A stretch of DNA of 64,000 nt, from the NCBI RefSeq assembly GCF_018350175.1, contig NC_058368.1:112346001-112410000 (forward strand). The letters are read 5' to 3'. Below, in pieces: positions 67 through 25,284 of this stretch; position 1 is the stretch's first letter; each line of letters begins with the position of its first letter. The position numbers and the translations under genes are program-made. The DNA is from Felis catus. Taxonomy: Eukaryota. The notes under the pieces are model-generated. The model was given only the letters and a program-made list of their open reading frames with translations. It was not told the origin of the DNA and did not search any database.

Positions 67-233
67 TTAGAGATATGCAGTAGGATCACTCAAGTCACAG
101 TTTTCAATATGTATATGGGATTGTATGCCAGGATGAACTTTCTGCAAGGGCAATACAGTTCCCAGTTTTTCTCCCTTCTTGATGGAACCTTTATATTTAA
201 TTGGCTTAATATGGAACATTTTTATACAAAAAC
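67..233 (-). CDS. LECT2: LECT2 coding exon 4 ([54 protein letters not shown])
   Basis: 167 nt from the AG acceptor (234-235) to TAA (69-67); contains the M23 HxH motif (H136, H138). The four exons sum to 456 nt = 151 aa + stop, with six Cys (25, 36, 41, 60, 99, 142). The 3' UTR runs off the window start. Confidence 0.98.
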
Positions 234-2911: not shown

Positions 2912-3870
2912 TGACATGTCAGGTAAAGGGTTAATATCCAAAATCTATAAAGAACTTCTCAAATTCAAAACCCAAAAACAATCCAGTGAAGAAATGGGTG
3001 GAGGACATGAATAGATACTTTTCCAAAGAAATTAGATGGCTAACAGACTTGTGAAAAATATGGTCAACAACACTCATCATCAAGGAAATAAAAAACAAAA
3101 CCACAATGAAGTACTTCCTCATACCTGTCAGAATAGCTAAAATTAACAACTCAGGAAACAACATGTTGAAGAGGTTGTGGAGAAAGGGGAACCCTTTTGC
3201 ACTGTTGATGGGAATGCAAACTGGAGTAGCCACTCTGGAAAACAGAATGGAGGTTCCTCAAAAAATTAAAAGTAGGACTACCCTATGACCCAGCAGTTGC
3301 ACTACTAGGTATTTATTTATCCAAAGGATACAAAAATGCAGATTCAAAGAGGCACATGCACCCCAATGTTCATAACAATGCTATTAAGAACAGTTAAACT
3401 ATTGAAAGAGTACAAATGTCTATTGACTGATGAATGGATAAAGAAGATGTGGTATATATATAATGGAATATTCAGTTATCAGAAACAATGAAATCTTGCC
3501 ATTTGCAATAATATGGATGGAACTAGAGTGTATTATGCTAAGCTAAATAAGTCCATCAGAGAAAGACAAATACCATATGATTTCACTTAAATGTGGAATT
3601 TAAGAACTAAAACAGGTGAATATAGGGGAAGGGAAGGAAAAGTAAAGATAAAAATGGAGGCAAACCATAAGAAGCTCTTAACTATAAAGAACAAACAGGG
3701 TTGATGGAAGGAGGTGGGTGGGGGTTGGGCTAAATAGATGATGGGTATTAAAGAGGGTACTTGTGATGAGCACTGAGTGTTTTATGTAAGTGATGAGTCA
3801 CTGAATTCTACTCCTGAAACCAATACTACACTATATGTTAATTAACTTGGATCTAAATAAAAATAAATAA
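2912..3870 (+). mobile_element. Older carnivore L1 3' fragment nested in an ancient L1 remnant (~2240-4260)
   Basis: Degenerate ORF2 C-terminus, G-rich 3' UTR and A-rich tail aaataaaaataaataaa. Confidence 0.85.
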
Positions 3871-3920
3871 AGCGAATGAGATGCCACTATATACTCATCA
3901 CAATGGCTGAAATGGGAGAG

Positions 3921-4130
3921 GGGGCACTTGGGTGGCTCAGTCAGTTAAGTGTTCAACTCTTGATCTTGACTCAGGTCATGATCTCATGACTCATGAGTTT
4001 GAGCCTCGTGTTGGGCTCTGCACTGACCATGTGGAGCCTGCTTGGGATTCTTTCTCTCCCTCTCTCTGCCCCTTCCCTGCTTGCACTCTCTCTCTCTCTC
4101 TCAAAATAAATAAATTAACTTAAAAAAAAA
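3921..4130 (+). mobile_element. Can-SINE
   Basis: ggggcacttgggtggctcagtcagttaag head, (CT)n tract, aaaataaataaa tail. Confidence 0.9.
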
Positions 4131-7131: not shown

Positions 7132-7277
7132 CTCTTCCAGATATCCGAACTCCATTATTAATGGCATTTTTGTTCTTATAAGGTTTCTCCTGGCCTACAA
7201 TCGTTCCAGTGAAAGGCGCATACACAGTCGATCCATCAGAGCACAAGACGTCCACACCCTGGTGAGGCCTATGATTT
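7132..7277 (-). CDS. LECT2: LECT2 coding exon 3 ([49 protein letters not shown])
   Basis: 146 nt, AG acceptor and GTGAGA donor; contains the M23 HxxxD zinc motif (H53, D57); overlaps ORF 7028..7255. Confidence 0.98.
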
Positions 7278-7584: not shown

Positions 7585-8031
7585 TTTTAAAACGTATTTA
7601 TTCTTTTGAAGTTTATTTATTTTGTGAGAGAGAGCGCCGGGGAGGGGCAGAGAGAGGGGGAGAGAGAATCCCAAGCAGGCTCCATGCTGTCAGTACAGAG
7701 CCTGATGCAGGACTTGATCCCTTGAACCGTGAGATCATGACCTGAGCCGAAATCAAGAGTCAGACAGTTACCTGACTGAGCCACCCAGGGGTCCATATGT
7801 AAGTAAATGTTTAAAAGATTTTTTTAATGTCTATTTATTATTGAGAAACAGAGAGAGACAGAGCATGAGCATGGGAGGGGCAAAGAGAGAGGAAGACGCA
7901 AATCCGAAGCAGGCTCCAGGCTCCGAGCTGTCAGCACAGAGCCCGACTTGGGGCTCAAACTCACAAACCATGAGATCATGACCTGAGCTGAAGTCAGACA
8001 CTTAACCGACTGAGCCACCCAGGTGCCCCCA
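7585..8031 (-). mobile_element. Two tandem Can-SINEs in LECT2 intron 2
   Basis: Two SINE bodies (~7600-7794 and ~7815-8030) delimited by three copies of tatgtaagtaaat. Confidence 0.9.
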
Positions 8032-8200
8032 TATGTAAGTAAATTTTATAGATATATGACTCTTCACCCCTTCAAGACCAGTTGTAAAAGAGTTATCTCT
8101 TTATGGAAACCTATCATAAAAGAATCATACGTTACCCTCATCTTATTTTTGTCTCAGTGACCAGAAGTTGTCATAAACAACATTTTTTGTATACGGTATT

Positions 8201-8437
8201 GTATTTTATTTTTTTTTTTAATTTTTTTTTCAACGTTTTATTTTATTTTTGGGACAGAGAGAGACAGAGCATGAACGGGGGAGGGGCAGAGAGAGAGGGA
8301 GACACAGAATCGGAAACAGGCTCCAGGCTCTGAGCCATCAGCCCAGAGCCTGACGCGGGGCTCAAACTCCCGGACCGCGAGATCGTGACCTGGCTGAAGT
8401 CGGATGCTTAACCGACTGCGCCACCCAGGCGCCCCAA
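8201..8437 (-). mobile_element. Young CpG-rich feline SINE in LECT2 intron 2
   Basis: Intact head ggggcgcctgggtggcgcagtcggttaag; TSD tgtatacggtatt at 8188-8200 and 8438-8450. Confidence 0.95.
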
Positions 8438-9400: not shown

Positions 9401-9574
<174 letters not shown>

Positions 9575-11032: not shown

Positions 11033-11078
11033 CAGTCGAAATGAAGACAGCAAAAAGGAGGACTTCTGTGGAAAACAT
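11033..11078 (-). CDS. LECT2: LECT2 coding exon 1 (signal peptide, MFSTEVLLFAVFIST)
   Basis: ATG at 11078-11076; 46 coding nt followed by donor GTAAGT; hydrophobic leader resembling human MFSTKALLLAGLIST; phase joins exon 2. Confidence 0.95.
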
Positions 11079-16988: not shown

Positions 16989-19900
16989 TCAGGATCCACA
17001 TAAGAGTGAAACCATATGGTATCTGTCTTTCTCTGTATGGCTTATTTCACTTAGCATCACACTCTCCAGTTCCATCCACGTTGCTACAAAAGGCCATATT
17101 TCATTTTTTCTCATTGCCACGTAATATTCCATTGTGTATATAAACCACAATTTCTTTATCCATTCATCAGTTGATGGACATTTAGGCTCTTTCCATAATT
17201 TGGCTATTGTTGAGAGTGCTGCTATGAACATTGGGGTACAAGTGGCCCTATGCATCAGTACTCCTGTATCCCTTGGATAAATTCCTAGCAGTGCTATTGC
17301 TGGGTCATAGGGTAGGTCTATTTTTAATTTTCTGAGGAACCTCCACACTGCTTTCCAGAGCGGCTGCACCAATTTGCATTCCCACCAACAGTGCAAGAGG
17401 GTTCCCGTTTCTCCACATCCTCTCCAGCATCTATAGTCTCCTGATTTGCTCATTTTGGCCACTCTGACTGGCGTGAGGTGATACCTGAGTGTGGTTTTGA
17501 TTTGTATTTCCCTGATAAGGAGCGACGCTGAACATCTTTTCATGTGCCTGTTGGCCATCCGGATGTCTTCTTTAGAGAAGTGTCTATTCATGTTTTCTGC
17601 CCATTTCTTCACTGGGTTATTTGTTTTTCGGGTGTGGAGTTTGGTGAGCTCTTTATAGATTTTGGATGCTAGCCCTTTGTCCGATATGTCATTTGCGAAT
17701 ATCTTTTCCCATTCCGTTGGTTGCCTTTTAGTTTTGTTGGTTGTTTCCTTTGCTGTGCAGAAGCTTTTTATCTTCATAAGGTCCCAGTAATTCATTTTTG
17801 CTTTTAATTCCCTTGCCTTTGGGGATGTGTCGAGTAAGAGATTGCTACGGCTGAGGTCAGAGAGGTCTTTTCCTGCTTTCTCCTCTAAGGTTTTGATGGT
17901 TTCCTGTCTCACATTCAGGTCCTTTATCCATTTTGAGTTTATTTTTGTGAATGGTGTGAGAAAGTGGTCTAGTTTCAACCTTCTGCATGTTGCTGTCCAG
18001 TTCTCCCAGCACCATTTGTTAAAGAGGCTGTCTTTTTTCCATTGGATGTTCTTTCCTGCTTTGTCAAAGATGAGTTGGCCATACGTTTGTGGGTCTAGTT
18101 TTGGGTCTATTCTATTCCATTGGTCTATGTGTCTGTTTTTGTGCCAATACCATGCTGTCTTGATGATGACAGCTTTGTAGTAGAGGCTAAAGTCTGGGAT
18201 TGTGATGCCTCCTGCTTTGGTCTTCTTCTTCAAAATTCCTTTGGCTATTCAGGGCCTTTTGTGGTTCCATATGAATTTTAGGATTGCTTGTTCTAGTTTC
18301 GAGAAGAATGCTGGTGCAATTTTGATTGGGATTGCATTGAATGTGTAGATAGCTTTGGGTAGTATTGACATTTTGACAATATTTATTTTTCCAATCCATG
18401 AGCAGGGAATGTCTTTCCATTTCTTTAAATCTTCTTCAATTTCCTTCATAAGCTTTCTATAGTTTTCAGCATACAGATCCTTTACATCCTTGGTTAGATT
18501 TATTCCTAGGTATTTTATGCTTCTTGGTGCAATTGTGAATGGGATCAGTTTCTTTATTTGTCTTTCTGTTGCTTCATTGTTAGTGTATAAGAATGCAACT
18601 GATTTCTGTACATTGATTTTGTATCCTGCAACTTTGCTGAATTCCTGTATCAGTTCTAGCAGACTTTTGGTGGAATCTATCGGATTTTCCATGTATAATA
18701 TGTCATCTGCAAAAAGCGAAAGCTTGACTTCATCTTTGCCAATTTTGATGCCTTTGATTTCCTTTTGTTGTCTGATTGCTGATGCTAGAACTTCCAGCAC
18801 TATGTTAAACAGCAGCGGTGATAGTGAGCATCCTTGTCGTGTTCCTGATCTCAGGGAAAAAGCTCTCAGTTTTTCCCCGTTGAGGATGATGTTAGCTGTG
18901 GGCTTTTCATAAATGGCTTTTATGATCTTTAAGTATGTTCCTTCTATCCCGACTTTCTCAAGGGTTTTTATTAAGAAAGGGTGCTGGATTTTGTCAAAGG
19001 CCTTTTCTGCATCGATTGACAGGATCATATGGTTCTTCTCTTTTTTTTTTTTGTTAATGTGATGTATCATGTTGATTGATTTGCGAATGTTGAACCAGCC
19101 CTGCATCCCAGGAATGAATCCCACTTGATCATGGTGAATAATTCTTTTTATATGCCGTTGAATTCGATTTGCTAGTATCTTATTGAGAATTTTTGCATCC
19201 ATATTCATCAGGGATATTGGCCTGTAGTTCTCTTTTTTTACTGGGTCTCTGTCTGGTTTAGGAATCCAAGTAATACTGGCTTCATAGAATGAGTCTGGAA
19301 GTTTTCCTTCCCTTTCTATTTCTTGGAATAGCTTGAGAAGGATAGGTATTATCTCTGCTTTAAATGTCTGGTAGAACTCCCCTGGGAAGCCATCTGGTCC
19401 TGGACTCTTATTTGTTGGGAGATTTTTGATAACCGATTCAATTTCTTCGCTGGTTATGGGTCTGTTCAAGCTTTCTATTTCCTCCTGATTGAGTTTTGGA
19501 AGAGTGTGGGTGTTCAGGAATTAGTCCATTTCTTCCAGGTTGTCCAATTTGTTGGCATATAATTTTTCATAGTATTCCCTGATAATTGTTTGTATCTCTG
19601 AGGGATTGGTTGTAATAATTCCATTTTCATTCATGATTTTATCTATTTGGGTCATCTCCCTTTTCTTTTTGAGAAGCCTGGCTAGAGGTTTGTCAATTTT
19701 GTTTATTTTTTCAAAAAACCAACTCTTGGTTTCATTGATCTGCTCTACAGTTTTTTTAGATTCTATATTGTTTATTTCTGCTCTGATCTTTATTATTTCT
19801 CTTCTTCTGCTGGGTTTAGGCTGCCTTTGCTGTTCTGCTTCTAGTTCCTTTAGGTGTGCTGTTAGATTTTGTATTTGGGATTTTTCTTGTTTCTTGAGAT

Positions 19901-20810
19901 AGGCCTGGATTGCAATGCATTTTCCTCTCAGGACTGCCTTCGCTGCGTCCCAAAGCATTTGGATTGTTGTATTTTCATTTTCGTTTGTTTCCATATATTT
20001 TTTAATTTCTTCTCTAATTGCCTGGTTGACCCACTCATTCGTTAGTAGGGTGTTCTTTAACCTCCATGCTTTTGGAGGTTTTCCAGACTTTTTTCTGTGG
20101 TTGATTTCAAGCTTCATAGCATTGTGGTCTGAAAGTATGCATGGTATAATTTCAATTCTTGTAAGCTTATGAAGGGCTGTTTTGTGACCCAGTATATGAT
20201 CTATCTTGGAGAATGTTCCATGTGCACTCGAGAAGAAAGTATATTCTGTTGCTTTGGGATGTAGAGTTCTAAATATATCTGTCAAGTCCATCTGACGCAA
20301 TGTCTCATTCAGGGCCCTTGTTTCTTTATTGACCGTGTGTCTAGATGATCTATCCATTTCTGTAAGTGGGGTGTTAAAGTCCCCTGCAATTACCACATTC
20401 TTCTCAATAAGGTTGTTTATGTTTATGAGTAATTGTTTTATATATTTGGGGGCTCCAGTATTCGGCACATAGACATTTATAATTGTTAGCTCTTCCTGAT
20501 GGATAGACCCTGTAACTATTATATAATGTCCTTCTTCATCTCTTGTTACAGCCTTTAATTTAAAGTCTAGTTTGTCTGATATAAGTATGGCTACTCCAGC
20601 TTTCTTTTGGCTTCCAGTCGCATGATAAATACTTCTCCGTCCCCTCACTCTCAATCTAAAGGTGTCCTCAGGTCTAAAATGAGTCTCTTGTAGGCAGCAA
20701 ATAGATGGGTCTTGTTTTTTTATCCATTCTGATACCCTATGTCTTTTGGTTGGCGCATTTAATCCATTTACATTCAGTGTTATTATAGAAAGATACGGGT
20801 TTAGAGTCAT
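16989..20810 (-). pseudogene. L1 ORF2p, interrupted by two in-frame stops
   Basis: [18 protein letters not shown] start at 20810; the three ORF-track segments share one frame, broken by TAA (19523-19521) and TGA (18251-18249). The RT motif reads LFADDILY, lacking the usual Met after FADD. Confidence 0.92.
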
Positions 20811-20860
20811 TGTGATGTCTGTATGTTTTATGCTTGTAGTGATGTCTCTGGGACTTTGTC

Positions 20861-21755
20861 TCACAGGGTCCCCCTTAGGATCTCTTGTAGGGCTGGTTTA
20901 GTGGTGACAAATTCCTTCAGTTTTTGTTTGTTTGGGAAGACCTTTATCTCTCCTTCTATTCTAAATGACAGACTTGCTGGATAAAGGATTCTCGGCTGCA
21001 TATTTTTTCTGTCTAGCACCCTGAAAATCTCGTGCCAATTCTTTCTGGCCTGCCAAGTTTCAAAAGAGAGATCAGTCACGAGTCTTATAGGTCTCCCTTT
21101 ATATGTGAGGGCACGTTTACCCCTTGCTGCTTTCAGAATTTTCTCTTTATCCTTGTATTTTGCCAGTTTCACTATGATATGTCGTGCAGAAGATCGATTC
21201 AAGTTACGTCTGAAGGGAGTTCTCTGTGCCTCTTGGATTTCAATGCCTTTTTCCTTCCCCAATTCAGGGAAGTTCTCAGCTATTATTTCTTCAAGTACCC
21301 CTTCAGCACCTTTCCCTCTCTCTTCCTCCTCTGGGATACCAATTATGCGTATATTATTTCTTTTTAGTGTATCACTTAGTTCTCTAATTTTCCCTTCATA
21401 CTCCTGGATTTTTTTATCTCTCTTTTTCTCAGCTTCCTCTTTTTCCATGACTTTATCCTCTAGTTCACCTATTCTCTCCCCTGCCTCTTCAAGCCGAGCT
21501 ATGGTGGTTTCCATTTTGTTATGCATTTCGTTTAAAGCGTTTTTCAGCTCCTCGTGACTGTTCCTTAGTCCCTTGATCTCTGTAGCAAGAGATTCTCTGC
21601 TGTCCTGTATACTGTTTTCAAGCCCAGCGATTAATTTTATGACTATTATTCTAAATTCACTTTTCTGTTATATTATTTAAATCCTTTTTGATCAGCTCAT
21701 TAGCTGTTGTTATTTCCTGGAGATTCTTCTGAGGGGAATTCTTCCGCTTGGTTAT
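20861..21755 (-). pseudogene. L1 ORF1p, disrupted
   Basis: C-terminal 221 aa open (ORF 20861..21526). The upstream part reads ATA-ACC-AAG-CGG-AAG-AAT (apparent ATG>ATA at 21755-21753) and is out of frame at an A-run near 21661-21664. Confidence 0.85.
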
Positions 21756-22674: not shown

Positions 22675-25284
22675 CAAACCTCAAAGGTCAGAAGTTTTTA
22701 ATTTTAGTGAAGTTTACTGTATTTTTTTTTTCCTTTGGCTGCTGGTGTTGCAGGTGTCATATCTAAAAAAAATCATTTTCTGATCCAAGGTCATGAAGAT
22801 TTATGCCTTTGTTTTATTCTAAGAGTGTTAAATTTTACATTTAGGTCTTTGATTCATCTTGAGTTAATTTTTATATATGGTGTGAAGTAGGGGTTCCAAA
22901 TTTATCTTTTTGTATGTAGCTATCTGGTTTTTCTAGCACCGTTTGTTAAAAAGACATATCATTTCCCTCCTGTAATTTTGTTTTATTTATTTTTATTTTA
23001 TTTTGTTTTATTAAAAATTTTTTTAACGTTTATTCATTTTTGATAGACACAGAACGCAAGTGGGGGAGAGGCAGAGAAAGAGGGAGACACAGAATCTGAA
23101 GGGAGCCTCAGGGGCTCTGAACTGTCAGCACAGAGCCTGGTGCAAGGCTCGAATCCACAAACTGTGAGATCATGACCTGTCCTGAAATGGGACATTTAAC
23201 TGACTGAGCCATCCAGGAACCCCTCGTGTAATTTTATTTTCTGTACCCTTGTTGGAATTCTGTACTCTTGATTCTGTTTCATTGATCTATATGTCTGCCC
23301 CATGCCAATAATGCACAGACTTGACTATGCTTTCTAGTAAATTTTGAAATCAGGAAGTATGAGTCTTCCAACTTTTTATTTTCAAAAATTGTTTTGGTTA
23401 TTCTGGATTCTTTATATTTTCATATGAATTTTACAATCAGCTCATCAGTTTCTGGAAAAAGACTGACAGGTGGCTGAAATTTTGATAGAGATTGAGTTGA
23501 ATCTGTAGATCTGTCTGGGAAGTATTGTCATCTTAATGATATTAACCCTCCAAGTTTTTTTTTAATTTCTTAAATGTTTATTTATTTTTAAGAGAGGGAG
23601 AGAGACAGAGCCTGAGTGGGGAAAGGGTAGAAAGAGGGAGACAAAGAATCTGAAGCAGGCTCCGGGCTCTGAGCTGTCAGAGCAGAGCCCGATGCGGGGC
23701 TTGAACTCACAGACCCTGAGATCATGACCTGAGCCGAAGTCAGACACTCAACCGACTGAGCCACCCAGGCTCCCCTCCCCAAGTTTTGAACATTTATTTA
23801 GGTCCTCTTTAATTTATTTCAGTGAGTTTTGTAGTTTTCAAGGTATACATCTTACACTTCATTTGTTAAATGTATTACTAAGTATTTTATGGTTTTTGCT
23901 GCTCTTACAAATGGAATTTTTTTTAAGTTTTTTAAAAATGTTTATTCATTTTTGAGAGACAGAGAGAGACAGAGTGCGAGTGGAGGAGGCACAGAGAGAG
24001 GGAGAGACACCGAATCTGAAGCAGGCTCCAGACTCTGAGCTGTCAGCACAGAGCTCTATGTGGGGCTCGAACTCACCAACCGTGAGATTATGGCCTGAGC
24101 CGAAGTCATATGCTCAACTGCCTAAGCCACACAGGTGCCCCAAATGGAATTGTTTTCTTAAGTGCATTCTCATATTTTTCCTTCCTAGTGCATGGAAATG
24201 CAACTGCTTTTTGTATATATATCTTTTGTCGTACAATTTTGCCAAATTAATTTATTAGCTCTAAGAGTTTTCATTTTTTTGATGGATTCCTTAGATTTTT
24301 TTTATATATACAAGCTTATATCATCTGCAAATAGGCCTTTCTATTCCCCTGTTCCTCATTACTACCTTCTTTTGTGTGCAGTAGATATTTTCTAGTGTAC
24401 CTTTTATTTCCATGTCATTTCTTTTACCATATATTTTTCAGTTCTTAATGGTTACCCTGGTAATTAAAACTTAACTTTAACAGTCTAATTCAGATTAATA
24501 CCAACTGAATTGCAATCATATACAAAAAGTTTCCCCCATATAGCTCCATTCTGTCACTCCTCTTCTTTGCTTTGTCATACAAATTATACCTGTATCTATT
24601 GTGTGCTCATCAACACCCAGATTTAGAATTATTGCTTTATTCACCTATGTAGTTACTTCACTGGTACTTTTTATTTATTTATTTTTTTATGGGTTCGAGT
24701 TATTATTTAGTGTCCTGTCATTTCTGCCTGAAGGACTTTCTTAGCATTTCCTGTAGAGCAGGTCTTTTAGCAACAAATTCTCTCCAGTTTTGATTATCTG
24801 CAAATATCTTAACTTATTCATTTTTGAAGGATAGTTTTGCCAGTTGTAGAATTCTTATTTAGCAGGTGTTTTTCTTTCAGTACTTTCAGTTTTGTTTTGT
24901 TTTTGTTTTGTTTTCTGTACTATGTCCTCCCAATGCCTTTTGGCCTCCGCAGTTTCTGATGATAAATCAACTGTTAGCCTCCTTGAGAATTCCTTATATG
25001 TGATGGTTGCTTTCAAGATTCTGTTTTTGCCTTTGTCTTTTGATTGTTTGAGTATGATGTGTCTGGTCTCTGAGTTTTTGAGTTTTCCTTACCTAGATTT
25101 TGTTGAGCTCCTTAGTTGTGTACATTAATGTTTTTCATCAGATTTGAGAAGTTTCCAGCCGTTATTTCTTTAGATACTCTTTCTGTCTTTCTCTTTCTCT
25201 CTCCTGTCCTTCTGGGACTCTGTTATGCATATATTGGTATTCTTGAGGATGCTGCACAGGTCTCTGAGCCTCTGTTCATTTGTC

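What the first reader, a model, noticed from the sequence alone, without database searches (positions are those of the whole stretch)
67..233. LECT2 carries His104 at the M23 catalytic position that is Tyr in the human pseudo-enzyme
Seen: exon 4 translates CIKMFHIKP (CAT codon at 213-211), with HxxxD (H53/D57) and HxH (H136/H138) intact, plus a second His at residue 130 (QKVHPG). Established, from memory: human LECT2 reads CVKMFYIKP and QKVYPG, has an M23 (LytM/lysostaphin-type) zinc-peptidase fold, and is considered inactive, with Tyr104 (Tyr86 mature) at the site of a catalytic His. Inference: this protein has the full M23 His set naturally and might have gained hydrolase or peptidoglycan-directed activity, or altered metal binding. 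Caveat: as I recall, restoring His alone did not activate human LECT2 because a loop blocks the substrate groove.
Basis: partly seen in the sequence, partly recalled or inferred. Interest (0 to 1): 0.75.

Follow-up and report, generated by a model that had tools for sequence, protein, structure and literature searches.

The report
Cat LECT2 with catalytic-site histidine
The cat-family version of the liver signalling protein LECT2 really has a histidine where related bacterial cell-wall-cutting enzymes have a catalytic one, but the same swap arose repeatedly in other vertebrates and the tyrosine it replaces is the normal residue even in phage relatives that look like working enzymes, so it is more likely a tolerated variant than a reawakened enzyme.

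Summary
Observation confirmed. The intact, single-copy, four-exon LECT2 gene encodes His53/Asp57, His104, His130 and His136/His138. Its product is identical (151/151) to named felid records, so this is not a sequencing error. Residue 104 aligns with the catalytic His216 of the M23 peptidase Pgp3.

His104 is not peculiar to this genome. All 8 full-length feliform sequences have it, with His130. It arose 5 times among 102 mammal sequences, always Tyr→His, and again in a crocodylian paralogue and a bird.

Tyr104 is not a vertebrate 'off' lesion. It is invariant in 33/33 viral and 68/68 Caulobacterales LECT2-type M23 domains. One of these sits in the endolysin slot of a phage lysis cassette; this scan noted that phage link earlier on other DNA (e1-5838319).

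The cat model matches human LECT2 at 0.6 Å with no indels, so the reported groove-blocking loop probably persists.

Best reading (~0.65): a tolerated polar-aromatic swap in a zinc-binding signalling ligand. His-dependent gain of hydrolase activity ~0.1; cryptic peptidoglycan activity across LECT2 ~0.12. No activity was tested. The natural His/Tyr variants and phage homologues make LECT2's pseudo-enzyme status directly testable.

The parts
11033..11078 (-). LECT2 coding exon 1 (most of the signal peptide)
   Evidence: ATG and GT donor; joins in frame
9441..9537 (-). LECT2 coding exon 2 (Cys25, Cys36, Cys41; R34-x-x-D37-x-x-G40-x-G42 loop signature)
7132..7277 (-). LECT2 coding exon 3
7250..7264 (-). 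HxxxD motif: His53 (7264-7262) and Asp57 (7252-7250), zinc ligands (mature H35/D39)
   Evidence: ligand assignment from passages of PMC8039541 and PMC13385698
67..233 (-). LECT2 coding exon 4 including the stop codon
211..213 (-). His104 codon CAT (Tyr in human and most vertebrates); aligns to Pgp3 His216, the LytM His260-type position
154..156 (-). Val123 (Leu in most mammals); changed on the feliform stem and in parallel on the perissodactyl stem, both times with His104
133..135 (-). His130 codon CAT (Tyr in most LECT2-type proteins); feliform-stem change
109..117 (-). HxH motif: His136 (water-activating position) and His138 (zinc ligand, mature H120)
   Evidence: roles from passages of PMC9662197 and PMC8039541

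Best explanation
This is the ordinary, intact felid LECT2 orthologue, a secreted zinc-binding protein with an M23 fold that acts as a receptor and microbe-surface ligand. Shown: His104 and His130 were fixed on the feliform stem, with M73T and L123V, and site 104 has switched Tyr→His repeatedly in vertebrates. Inferred: position 104 lines the zinc site and needs a polar aromatic side chain able to hydrogen-bond, probably to the zinc-bound water or a ligand. In animals either Tyr or His satisfies this, and one T→C transition converts them. His104 is then a tolerated, at most fine-tuning, substitution, and the cat protein most likely behaves like human LECT2, with no conventional peptidase activity.
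For: All 5 parsimony changes at site 104 in 102 mammal sequences are Tyr→His, which equals the median number of changes per mature site (5). The carriers (feliforms, perissodactyls, squirrel monkey, elephant, one tammar copy) share no obvious ecology; that judgement is mine. The mature protein differs from human at 14 of 133 sites with no indels. The AlphaFold2 model (pLDDT 91.3) matches 5B0H at 0.6 Å over 133 residues, Z 27.8, against Z about 11-14 for LytM, lysostaphin and other canonical M23s. Reviews report no peptidase activity, a structural role for zinc and a groove blocked by an extra loop in human LECT2 (passages). The closest non-animal relatives keep Tyr invariantly, so His departs from the subfamily norm rather than returning to it.
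Against: The His-only pattern is non-random: 5 of 5 changes at site 104 against 7 of 25 at five other Tyr sites, Fisher p=0.006, post hoc. His has persisted without reversal in 8 of 8 feliform and 4 of 4 perissodactyl sequences, and in 5 of 5 sequences of one crocodylian paralogue. Two of the four feliform-stem changes hit subfamily-conserved tyrosines, and L123V co-occurs with H104 on two stems. These fit selection as well as tolerance. The model's match to human may reflect AlphaFold having learned 5B0H. No activity or dN/dS test could be run.
Confidence: 0.65

Rival explanations
1. Re-activation: His104 restores the canonical pair of water-activating histidines (LytM His260/His291 type), giving feliform, and perhaps horse, elephant and crocodile, LECT2 a peptidase or peptidoglycan-hydrolase activity that Tyr forms lack.
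For: Residue 104 aligns with Pgp3 His216. In LytM, loss of either His abolishes activity (PMC4594094 passage). All zinc ligands and His136 are present. Mammalian His104 sequences score higher on Pfam M23 than their Tyr relatives, e.g. cat 39.9 bits against 31.6-33.5 for caniforms. The change arose repeatedly and only to His.
Against: There are no indels or remodelling of the loops. The position aligned with LytM's oxyanion Tyr204 is Gln47 in cat (my count on the ungapped alignment). The nearest enzyme-like relatives use Tyr104 in 101 of 101 aligned domains. The Pfam gain is not seen in the crocodile copy (27.3 against 32.0-34.7 bits) and is negligible in Saimiri (36.4 against 33.6-36.0).
Confidence: 0.1
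2. Cryptic enzyme family: LECT2-type M23s are an old Tyr-based subfamily of working peptidoglycan hydrolases (phage endolysins, a Caulobacterales periplasmic protein). Animal LECT2 keeps some activity on a substrate not yet tried, such as mDAP-type cross-links, whether residue 104 is Tyr or His. His104 tunes this activity rather than switching it on.
For: Salicola phage CGphi29 YP_007673724 is 33% identical to cat LECT2 (pairwise E 8e-21) and is the likely top viral fold match (same 187-aa length). It lies between a holin-like ORF and Rz-like spanin. It is the only peptidoglycan-hydrolase domain among the 32 of 64 annotated CDS that I scanned; of the other 32, the named ones include no lysin and some short hypothetical ones were not scanned. 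Named lysis genes flank 4 of 12 viral loci tested. The loop-1 signature R34/D37/G40/G42/R48 is shared by mammals, viruses and bacteria. Fish LECT2-b binds peptidoglycan and kills bacteria (review passage).
Against: No Tyr-type protein has been shown active in anything I read. Endolysin function is inferred from gene position, and 8 of 12 loci had no named lysis neighbour. Human LECT2 is reported inactive. Vertebrates tolerate His, Cys, Asn or Phe at 104 in some copies, which suggests relaxed catalytic constraint.
Confidence: 0.12
3. Adaptive, non-catalytic tuning: the His104/Val123/His130 set was selected in feliforms because it changes zinc affinity, pH sensitivity, aggregation, or binding to receptors or bacterial surfaces.
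For: Of four mature-protein changes on the feliform stem, two replace conserved Tyr by His, against none on the caniform stem. Human LECT2 zinc binding is strongly pH-dependent through His ionisation (PMC8039541 passage).
Against: No codon-level test was possible because only protein sequences of the orthologues were on hand. Tyr→His is a single transition. Site 104 changes no more often than the median site.
Confidence: 0.13

Closest known systems
Human LECT2 (PDB 5B0H, 9NON)
   Same: Orthologue; four exons and 151 aa; 119 of 133 mature residues identical, no indels, six cysteines, zinc ligands and HxH kept; model rmsd 0.6 Å.
   Different: His104 and His130 in place of Tyr; 12 other mature substitutions.
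Canonical M23B peptidases (S. aureus LytM, lysostaphin, C. jejuni Pgp3; Pfam PF01551)
   Same: Fold (Z about 11-14); HxxxD and HxH; in cat also His at the His260/His216-type position; above the Pfam gathering score (39.9 vs 28.7).
   Different: About 20% identity; LECT2-specific disulfide-bonded loop region; Gln at the position aligned with LytM Tyr204; no activity known.
LECT2-type (Tyr-type) M23 proteins of phages and Caulobacterales (e.g. Salicola phage CGphi29 YP_007673724); an unnamed group, also noted in earlier scan finding e1-5838319
   Same: Closest non-animal relatives: their profile scores human LECT2 at 134 bits against at most 44 for canonical M23 chains; shared R34, D37, G40, G42, R48, H53, D57, H136, H138.
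   Different: They keep Tyr104 without exception (33/33 viral, 68/68 bacterial aligned) and nearly always Tyr130; most lack the full LECT2 disulfide set; several sit in lysis cassettes.

Membership tests
Vertebrate LECT2 | Four-exon gene, 151-aa secreted protein with six conserved cysteines | tested here: met
   (C25, C36, C41, C60, C99, C142); identical to named LECT2 record P0036
Vertebrate LECT2 | Zinc site His35/Asp39/His120 (mature numbering) | tested here: met
   residues present; zinc binding itself was not measured
Vertebrate LECT2 | LECT2 fold as in 5B0H | tested here: met
   (predicted model; TM 0.99 by target, rmsd 0.6 Å)
Active M23 metalloendopeptidase | HxxxD and HxH motifs | tested here: met
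Active M23 metalloendopeptidase | Second water-activating His about 30 residues before HxH (LytM His260, Pgp3 His216) | tested here: met
   sequence register to Pgp3 His216; profile alignments to LytM and LytU were off by 1-2 columns at low confidence; no residue-level 3D superposition was available
Active M23 metalloendopeptidase | Oxyanion-stabilising residue (LytM Tyr204; Arg21 in EnpA) | tested here: inconclusive
   Gln47 aligns with Tyr204 by my count; the neighbouring Arg48 is nearly invariant and could serve as in EnpA (inference from a PMC9662197 passage)
Active M23 metalloendopeptidase | Open substrate-binding groove | tested here: inconclusive
   model is human-like and has no indels; the human groove is reported blocked; model coordinates could not be inspected
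Active M23 metalloendopeptidase | Hydrolysis of glycyl-glycine or peptidoglycan peptide bonds | not testable with these tools
   needs a bench assay
LECT2-type (Tyr-type) M23 group | R34-x-x-D37-x-x-G40-x-G42 ... R48 signature | tested here: met
LECT2-type (Tyr-type) M23 group | Tyr at 104 and 130 | tested here: not met
   cat has His at both; a derived departure within the lineage, so these are not required features of animal members

The most novel reading that the evidence does not exclude
LECT2 descends from a Tyr-based subfamily of working phage and bacterial peptidoglycan hydrolases, and some vertebrate LECT2s are real antibacterial cell-wall enzymes. Feliforms, perissodactyls, an elephant, a New World monkey, a marsupial copy, a crocodylian paralogue and a bird have each converged on the canonical M23 His, and in cats this (with His130) gives measurable, His104-dependent hydrolase activity. 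That would be a vertebrate lysostaphin-type enzyme.
Probability: 0.1. Interest if true: 0.85.

Novelty: new variant of a known kind. Interest (0 to 1): 0.38.

Why it matters
LECT2 is described as the only vertebrate M23 protein and as a dead enzyme because it lacks one catalytic histidine and has a blocking loop. Natural orthologues that carry the histidine (cat, horse, elephant, crocodile) and phage relatives that carry the tyrosine in an endolysin position separate those two explanations without engineering. If cat LECT2 is inactive, the missing His is not what silences LECT2. If the phage Tyr-type protein is active, the textbook M23 requirement for that His needs revising and the substrate panel for human LECT2 should be widened. 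If cat LECT2 is active, vertebrates have a new antibacterial hydrolase.

Tried and rejected
Sequencing error: rejected. Paralogue or pseudogene: rejected, as there is one intact copy. Species-specific novelty: rejected.

The single-sequence AlphaFold run was useless (pLDDT 35); it was repeated with a 129-sequence alignment. A residue-level superposition on LytM was not possible because model coordinates are not supplied. Profile alignments to LytM and LytU put their His 1-2 columns from 104 at low posterior, so the register rests on Pgp3.

The primary structure paper (Zheng 2016) was not held under PMC id or DOI. Any Y86H experiment is therefore unverified recall.

Read-level confirmation of the codon was not obtained. 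No RNA holder was listed.

Locus searches with the broad alignment A4 could not run, and the CGphi29 protein alone found no relative in viral contigs.

The tree (47 rows; very long outgroup branches, many open forks) gives vertebrates as one side of a branch (97/93). It puts animal-like rows among phage and bacterial rows but cannot be rooted, so I claim no donor or direction of transfer.

Rows dropped: one Rhinolophus isoform with a different C-terminus was dropped before the parsimony count (103→102). Other partial or isoform records were not entered in the named set.

Weak PDB hits to IcmW (E 0.5-1.3) were taken as chance. A pseudopeptidase review (PMC11266112) does not mention LECT2 or M23.

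Full report
Observation. The minus strand of window 233-67 is the last coding exon of LECT2 and reads CIKMFHIKP ... [16 protein letters not shown]. With exons 11078-11033, 9537-9441 and 7277-7132 it gives a 456-nt frame of 151 aa, with canonical splice sites and no internal stop. It encodes His53, Asp57, His104 (CAT, 213-211), His130 (CAT, 135-133), His136 and His138. Human LECT2 has Tyr at 104 and 130. The product equals P0036 at 151 of 151 positions, a sequence its sources name from domestic cat, Iberian lynx and Felinae. The genome search returned only exons of this gene.

Is 104 the catalytic position? M23 peptidases bind zinc through HxxxD and the second His of HxH. They activate water with the first His of HxH and another His about 30 residues earlier (LytM His260, Pgp3 His216), and use Tyr204 (LytM) or Arg21 (EnpA) for the oxyanion (passages of PMC9662197; PMC4594094; PMC6978369). 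LECT2 profiles align residue 104 with the His of Pgp3 'YYHLSK', which my residue count makes His216. The cat protein retrieves Pgp3 wild type and the H247A chains (E 0.59-0.64) but not the H216A chain at E<=10. The H216A chain also scores below wild type with all four profiles tried. These are weak matches, and alignments to LytM and LytU were off by one or two columns at low confidence. The equivalence is therefore well supported but not shown by 3D superposition. An AlphaFold2 model built on 129 sequences (pLDDT 91.3) matches human 5B0H at 0.6 Å over 133 residues (Z 27.8) and canonical M23s at Z about 11-14. The mature protein differs from human at 14 of 133 residues with no indel. Secondary sources say human LECT2 lacks a catalytic His, has an extra loop or blocked groove, lacks peptidase activity and uses zinc structurally (passages). 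The primary paper was not available. No listed paper (30 of 1,009) or 30 (25 of 65) combined LECT2 with Tyr86 or Y86H, so the name 'Tyr86' and any Y86H test remain recalled.

Distribution. Among 102 named mammalian sequences, 87 have Tyr104 and 15 have His. One further Rhinolophus isoform was dropped. Parsimony on a hand-written species tree gives five changes, all Tyr→His: the feliform stem (8 sequences: cats, hyenas, meerkat), the perissodactyl stem (4), Saimiri, Loxodonta and one tammar copy. Caniforms and the pangolin fragment keep Tyr. Site 130 shows three changes, all to His (feliforms, mole, marmot). Five other Tyr sites show 7 His among 25 changes (Fisher p=0.006 for 104 alone, 0.0005 for 104+130; post hoc). 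Five changes is the median for the 133 mature sites. The feliform stem carries M73T, Y104H, L123V and Y130H, and the perissodactyl stem also pairs Y104H with L123V. Outside mammals Tyr dominates: 87 of 98 segments from the wider hit list (which includes some mammals). His appears in all 5 sequences (4 species) of one crocodylian paralogue and in a ground-roller. His104 is thus an old feliform character and a recurrent vertebrate substitution. The site accepts only polar aromatics in single-domain mammalian LECT2, which points to a hydrogen-bonding role that both residues can fill (inference).

The tyrosine is ancient. A profile search of 1.84 billion representatives found roughly 30%-identical relatives without the LECT2 disulfide set, and Tyr104 was invariant in the 37 I aligned. 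That set was drawn with a Tyr-majority profile. Loci fetched with patterns that do not include site 104 gave Tyr in 33 of 33 aligned viral domains (34 distinct) and 68 of 68 aligned domains (69 distinct) from bacterial genomes, almost all Caulobacterales. These share R34, D37, G40, G42, R48 and the zinc and HxH residues with mammals. Their profile scores human LECT2 at 134 bits against at most 44 for canonical M23 chains. Salicola phage CGphi29 YP_007673724 is 33% identical to the cat protein. It sits between an unannotated holin-like ORF and an Rz-like spanin and is the only cell-wall hydrolase domain among 32 of 64 CDS scanned. Named lysis genes flank 4 of 12 viral loci tested. After reaching this I found that the scan had noted the same phage link on other DNA (e1-5838319); that note is unchecked and is not independent support. 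The consequence is that Tyr104 is the subfamily's normal residue, even in probable endolysins (inferred from position, not assayed). His104 in cats moves away from the subfamily norm while converging on the canonical M23 residue.

Mechanism and odds. Most likely (0.65) the cat protein works like human LECT2, as a zinc-stabilised secreted ligand, and His104 is a tolerated one-transition swap at a polar position by the zinc site. Rivals are selected non-catalytic tuning (0.13), a cryptic peptidoglycan activity common to Tyr and His forms (0.12; fish LECT2-b binds peptidoglycan and kills bacteria according to a review passage), and His-dependent re-activation (0.10). Against my preferred reading stand the His-only pattern, the absence of reversals, and the cluster of changes on the feliform stem. 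None of the four readings was tested by activity or by codon models.

Literature. Ten searches were run. I saw listings and abstract starts, and read passages only, of PMC9662197, PMC9258709, PMC5504477, PMC10034042, PMC5079751, PMC13385698, PMC8039541, PMC4594094, PMC6978369, PMC8584072, PMC9934627 and bioRxiv 2022.09.10.507391. PMC11266112 had no matching passage. Nothing listed described natural His104 LECT2 variants or Tyr-type phage M23s. The library lacks most subscription journals, only part of each result list was shown, and no supplements were read; the supplementary alignment of the Caulobacter preprint may bear on which Ldp protein is Tyr-type.

Verdict. The feature is real, a natural variant of a known protein, ordinary as a single-genome novelty but useful as a natural experiment on why LECT2 is inactive. 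Interest 0.38.

Noticed in passing
L001:3694-5117 (NC_020844.1, Salicola phage CGphi29): Lysis cassette with an unannotated holin-like ORF (3694-4008; PHROG holin E 3e-12), a LECT2-type Tyr-M23 annotated as hypothetical, and Rz-like spanin; probable unrecognised endolysin.
   Followed up: partly
L021-L089 (e.g. L053:2743-3405): A LECT2-type Tyr-M23 gene is widespread in Caulobacter and Phenylobacterium genomes (69 loci); the one I read has a signal-peptide-like N-terminus and no phage neighbours. A preprint legend calls C. crescentus LdpB of unclear catalytic proficiency; whether it is this protein was not checked.
   Followed up: partly
P0145, P0366-P0369: One crocodylian LECT2 paralogue has His104 in all four species sampled while the sister paralogues keep Tyr, a within-genome His/Tyr pair.
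   Followed up: partly
P0256 (unnamed 66-aa fragment): Tyr104 with Val123 and His130: a possible intermediate of the feliform set, or an unrelated lineage.
   Followed up: no
P0061, P0109: Vaquita (Phocoena sinus) LECT2 has Tyr in place of the zinc ligand Asp57.
   Followed up: no
P0237, P0241, P0243, P0255 and similar: Unnamed vertebrate-like paralogues with Asn104 and HxE or HxK in place of HxH, and others with LxxxD in place of HxxxD: further degenerate LECT2 copies.
   Followed up: no
window 16989-21667, minus strand: Near full-length LINE-1 copy (ORF1 RNA-binding domains, endonuclease, reverse transcriptase) interrupted by stops, upstream of LECT2.
   Followed up: partly
window 23686-23770, minus strand; introns near 8200-8430 and 7600-8030: A marginal Rfam tRNA match (31.7 bits), probably the head of a tRNA-derived carnivore SINE; SINE-like repeats are visible in LECT2 introns (SINE identity recalled).
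   Followed up: no
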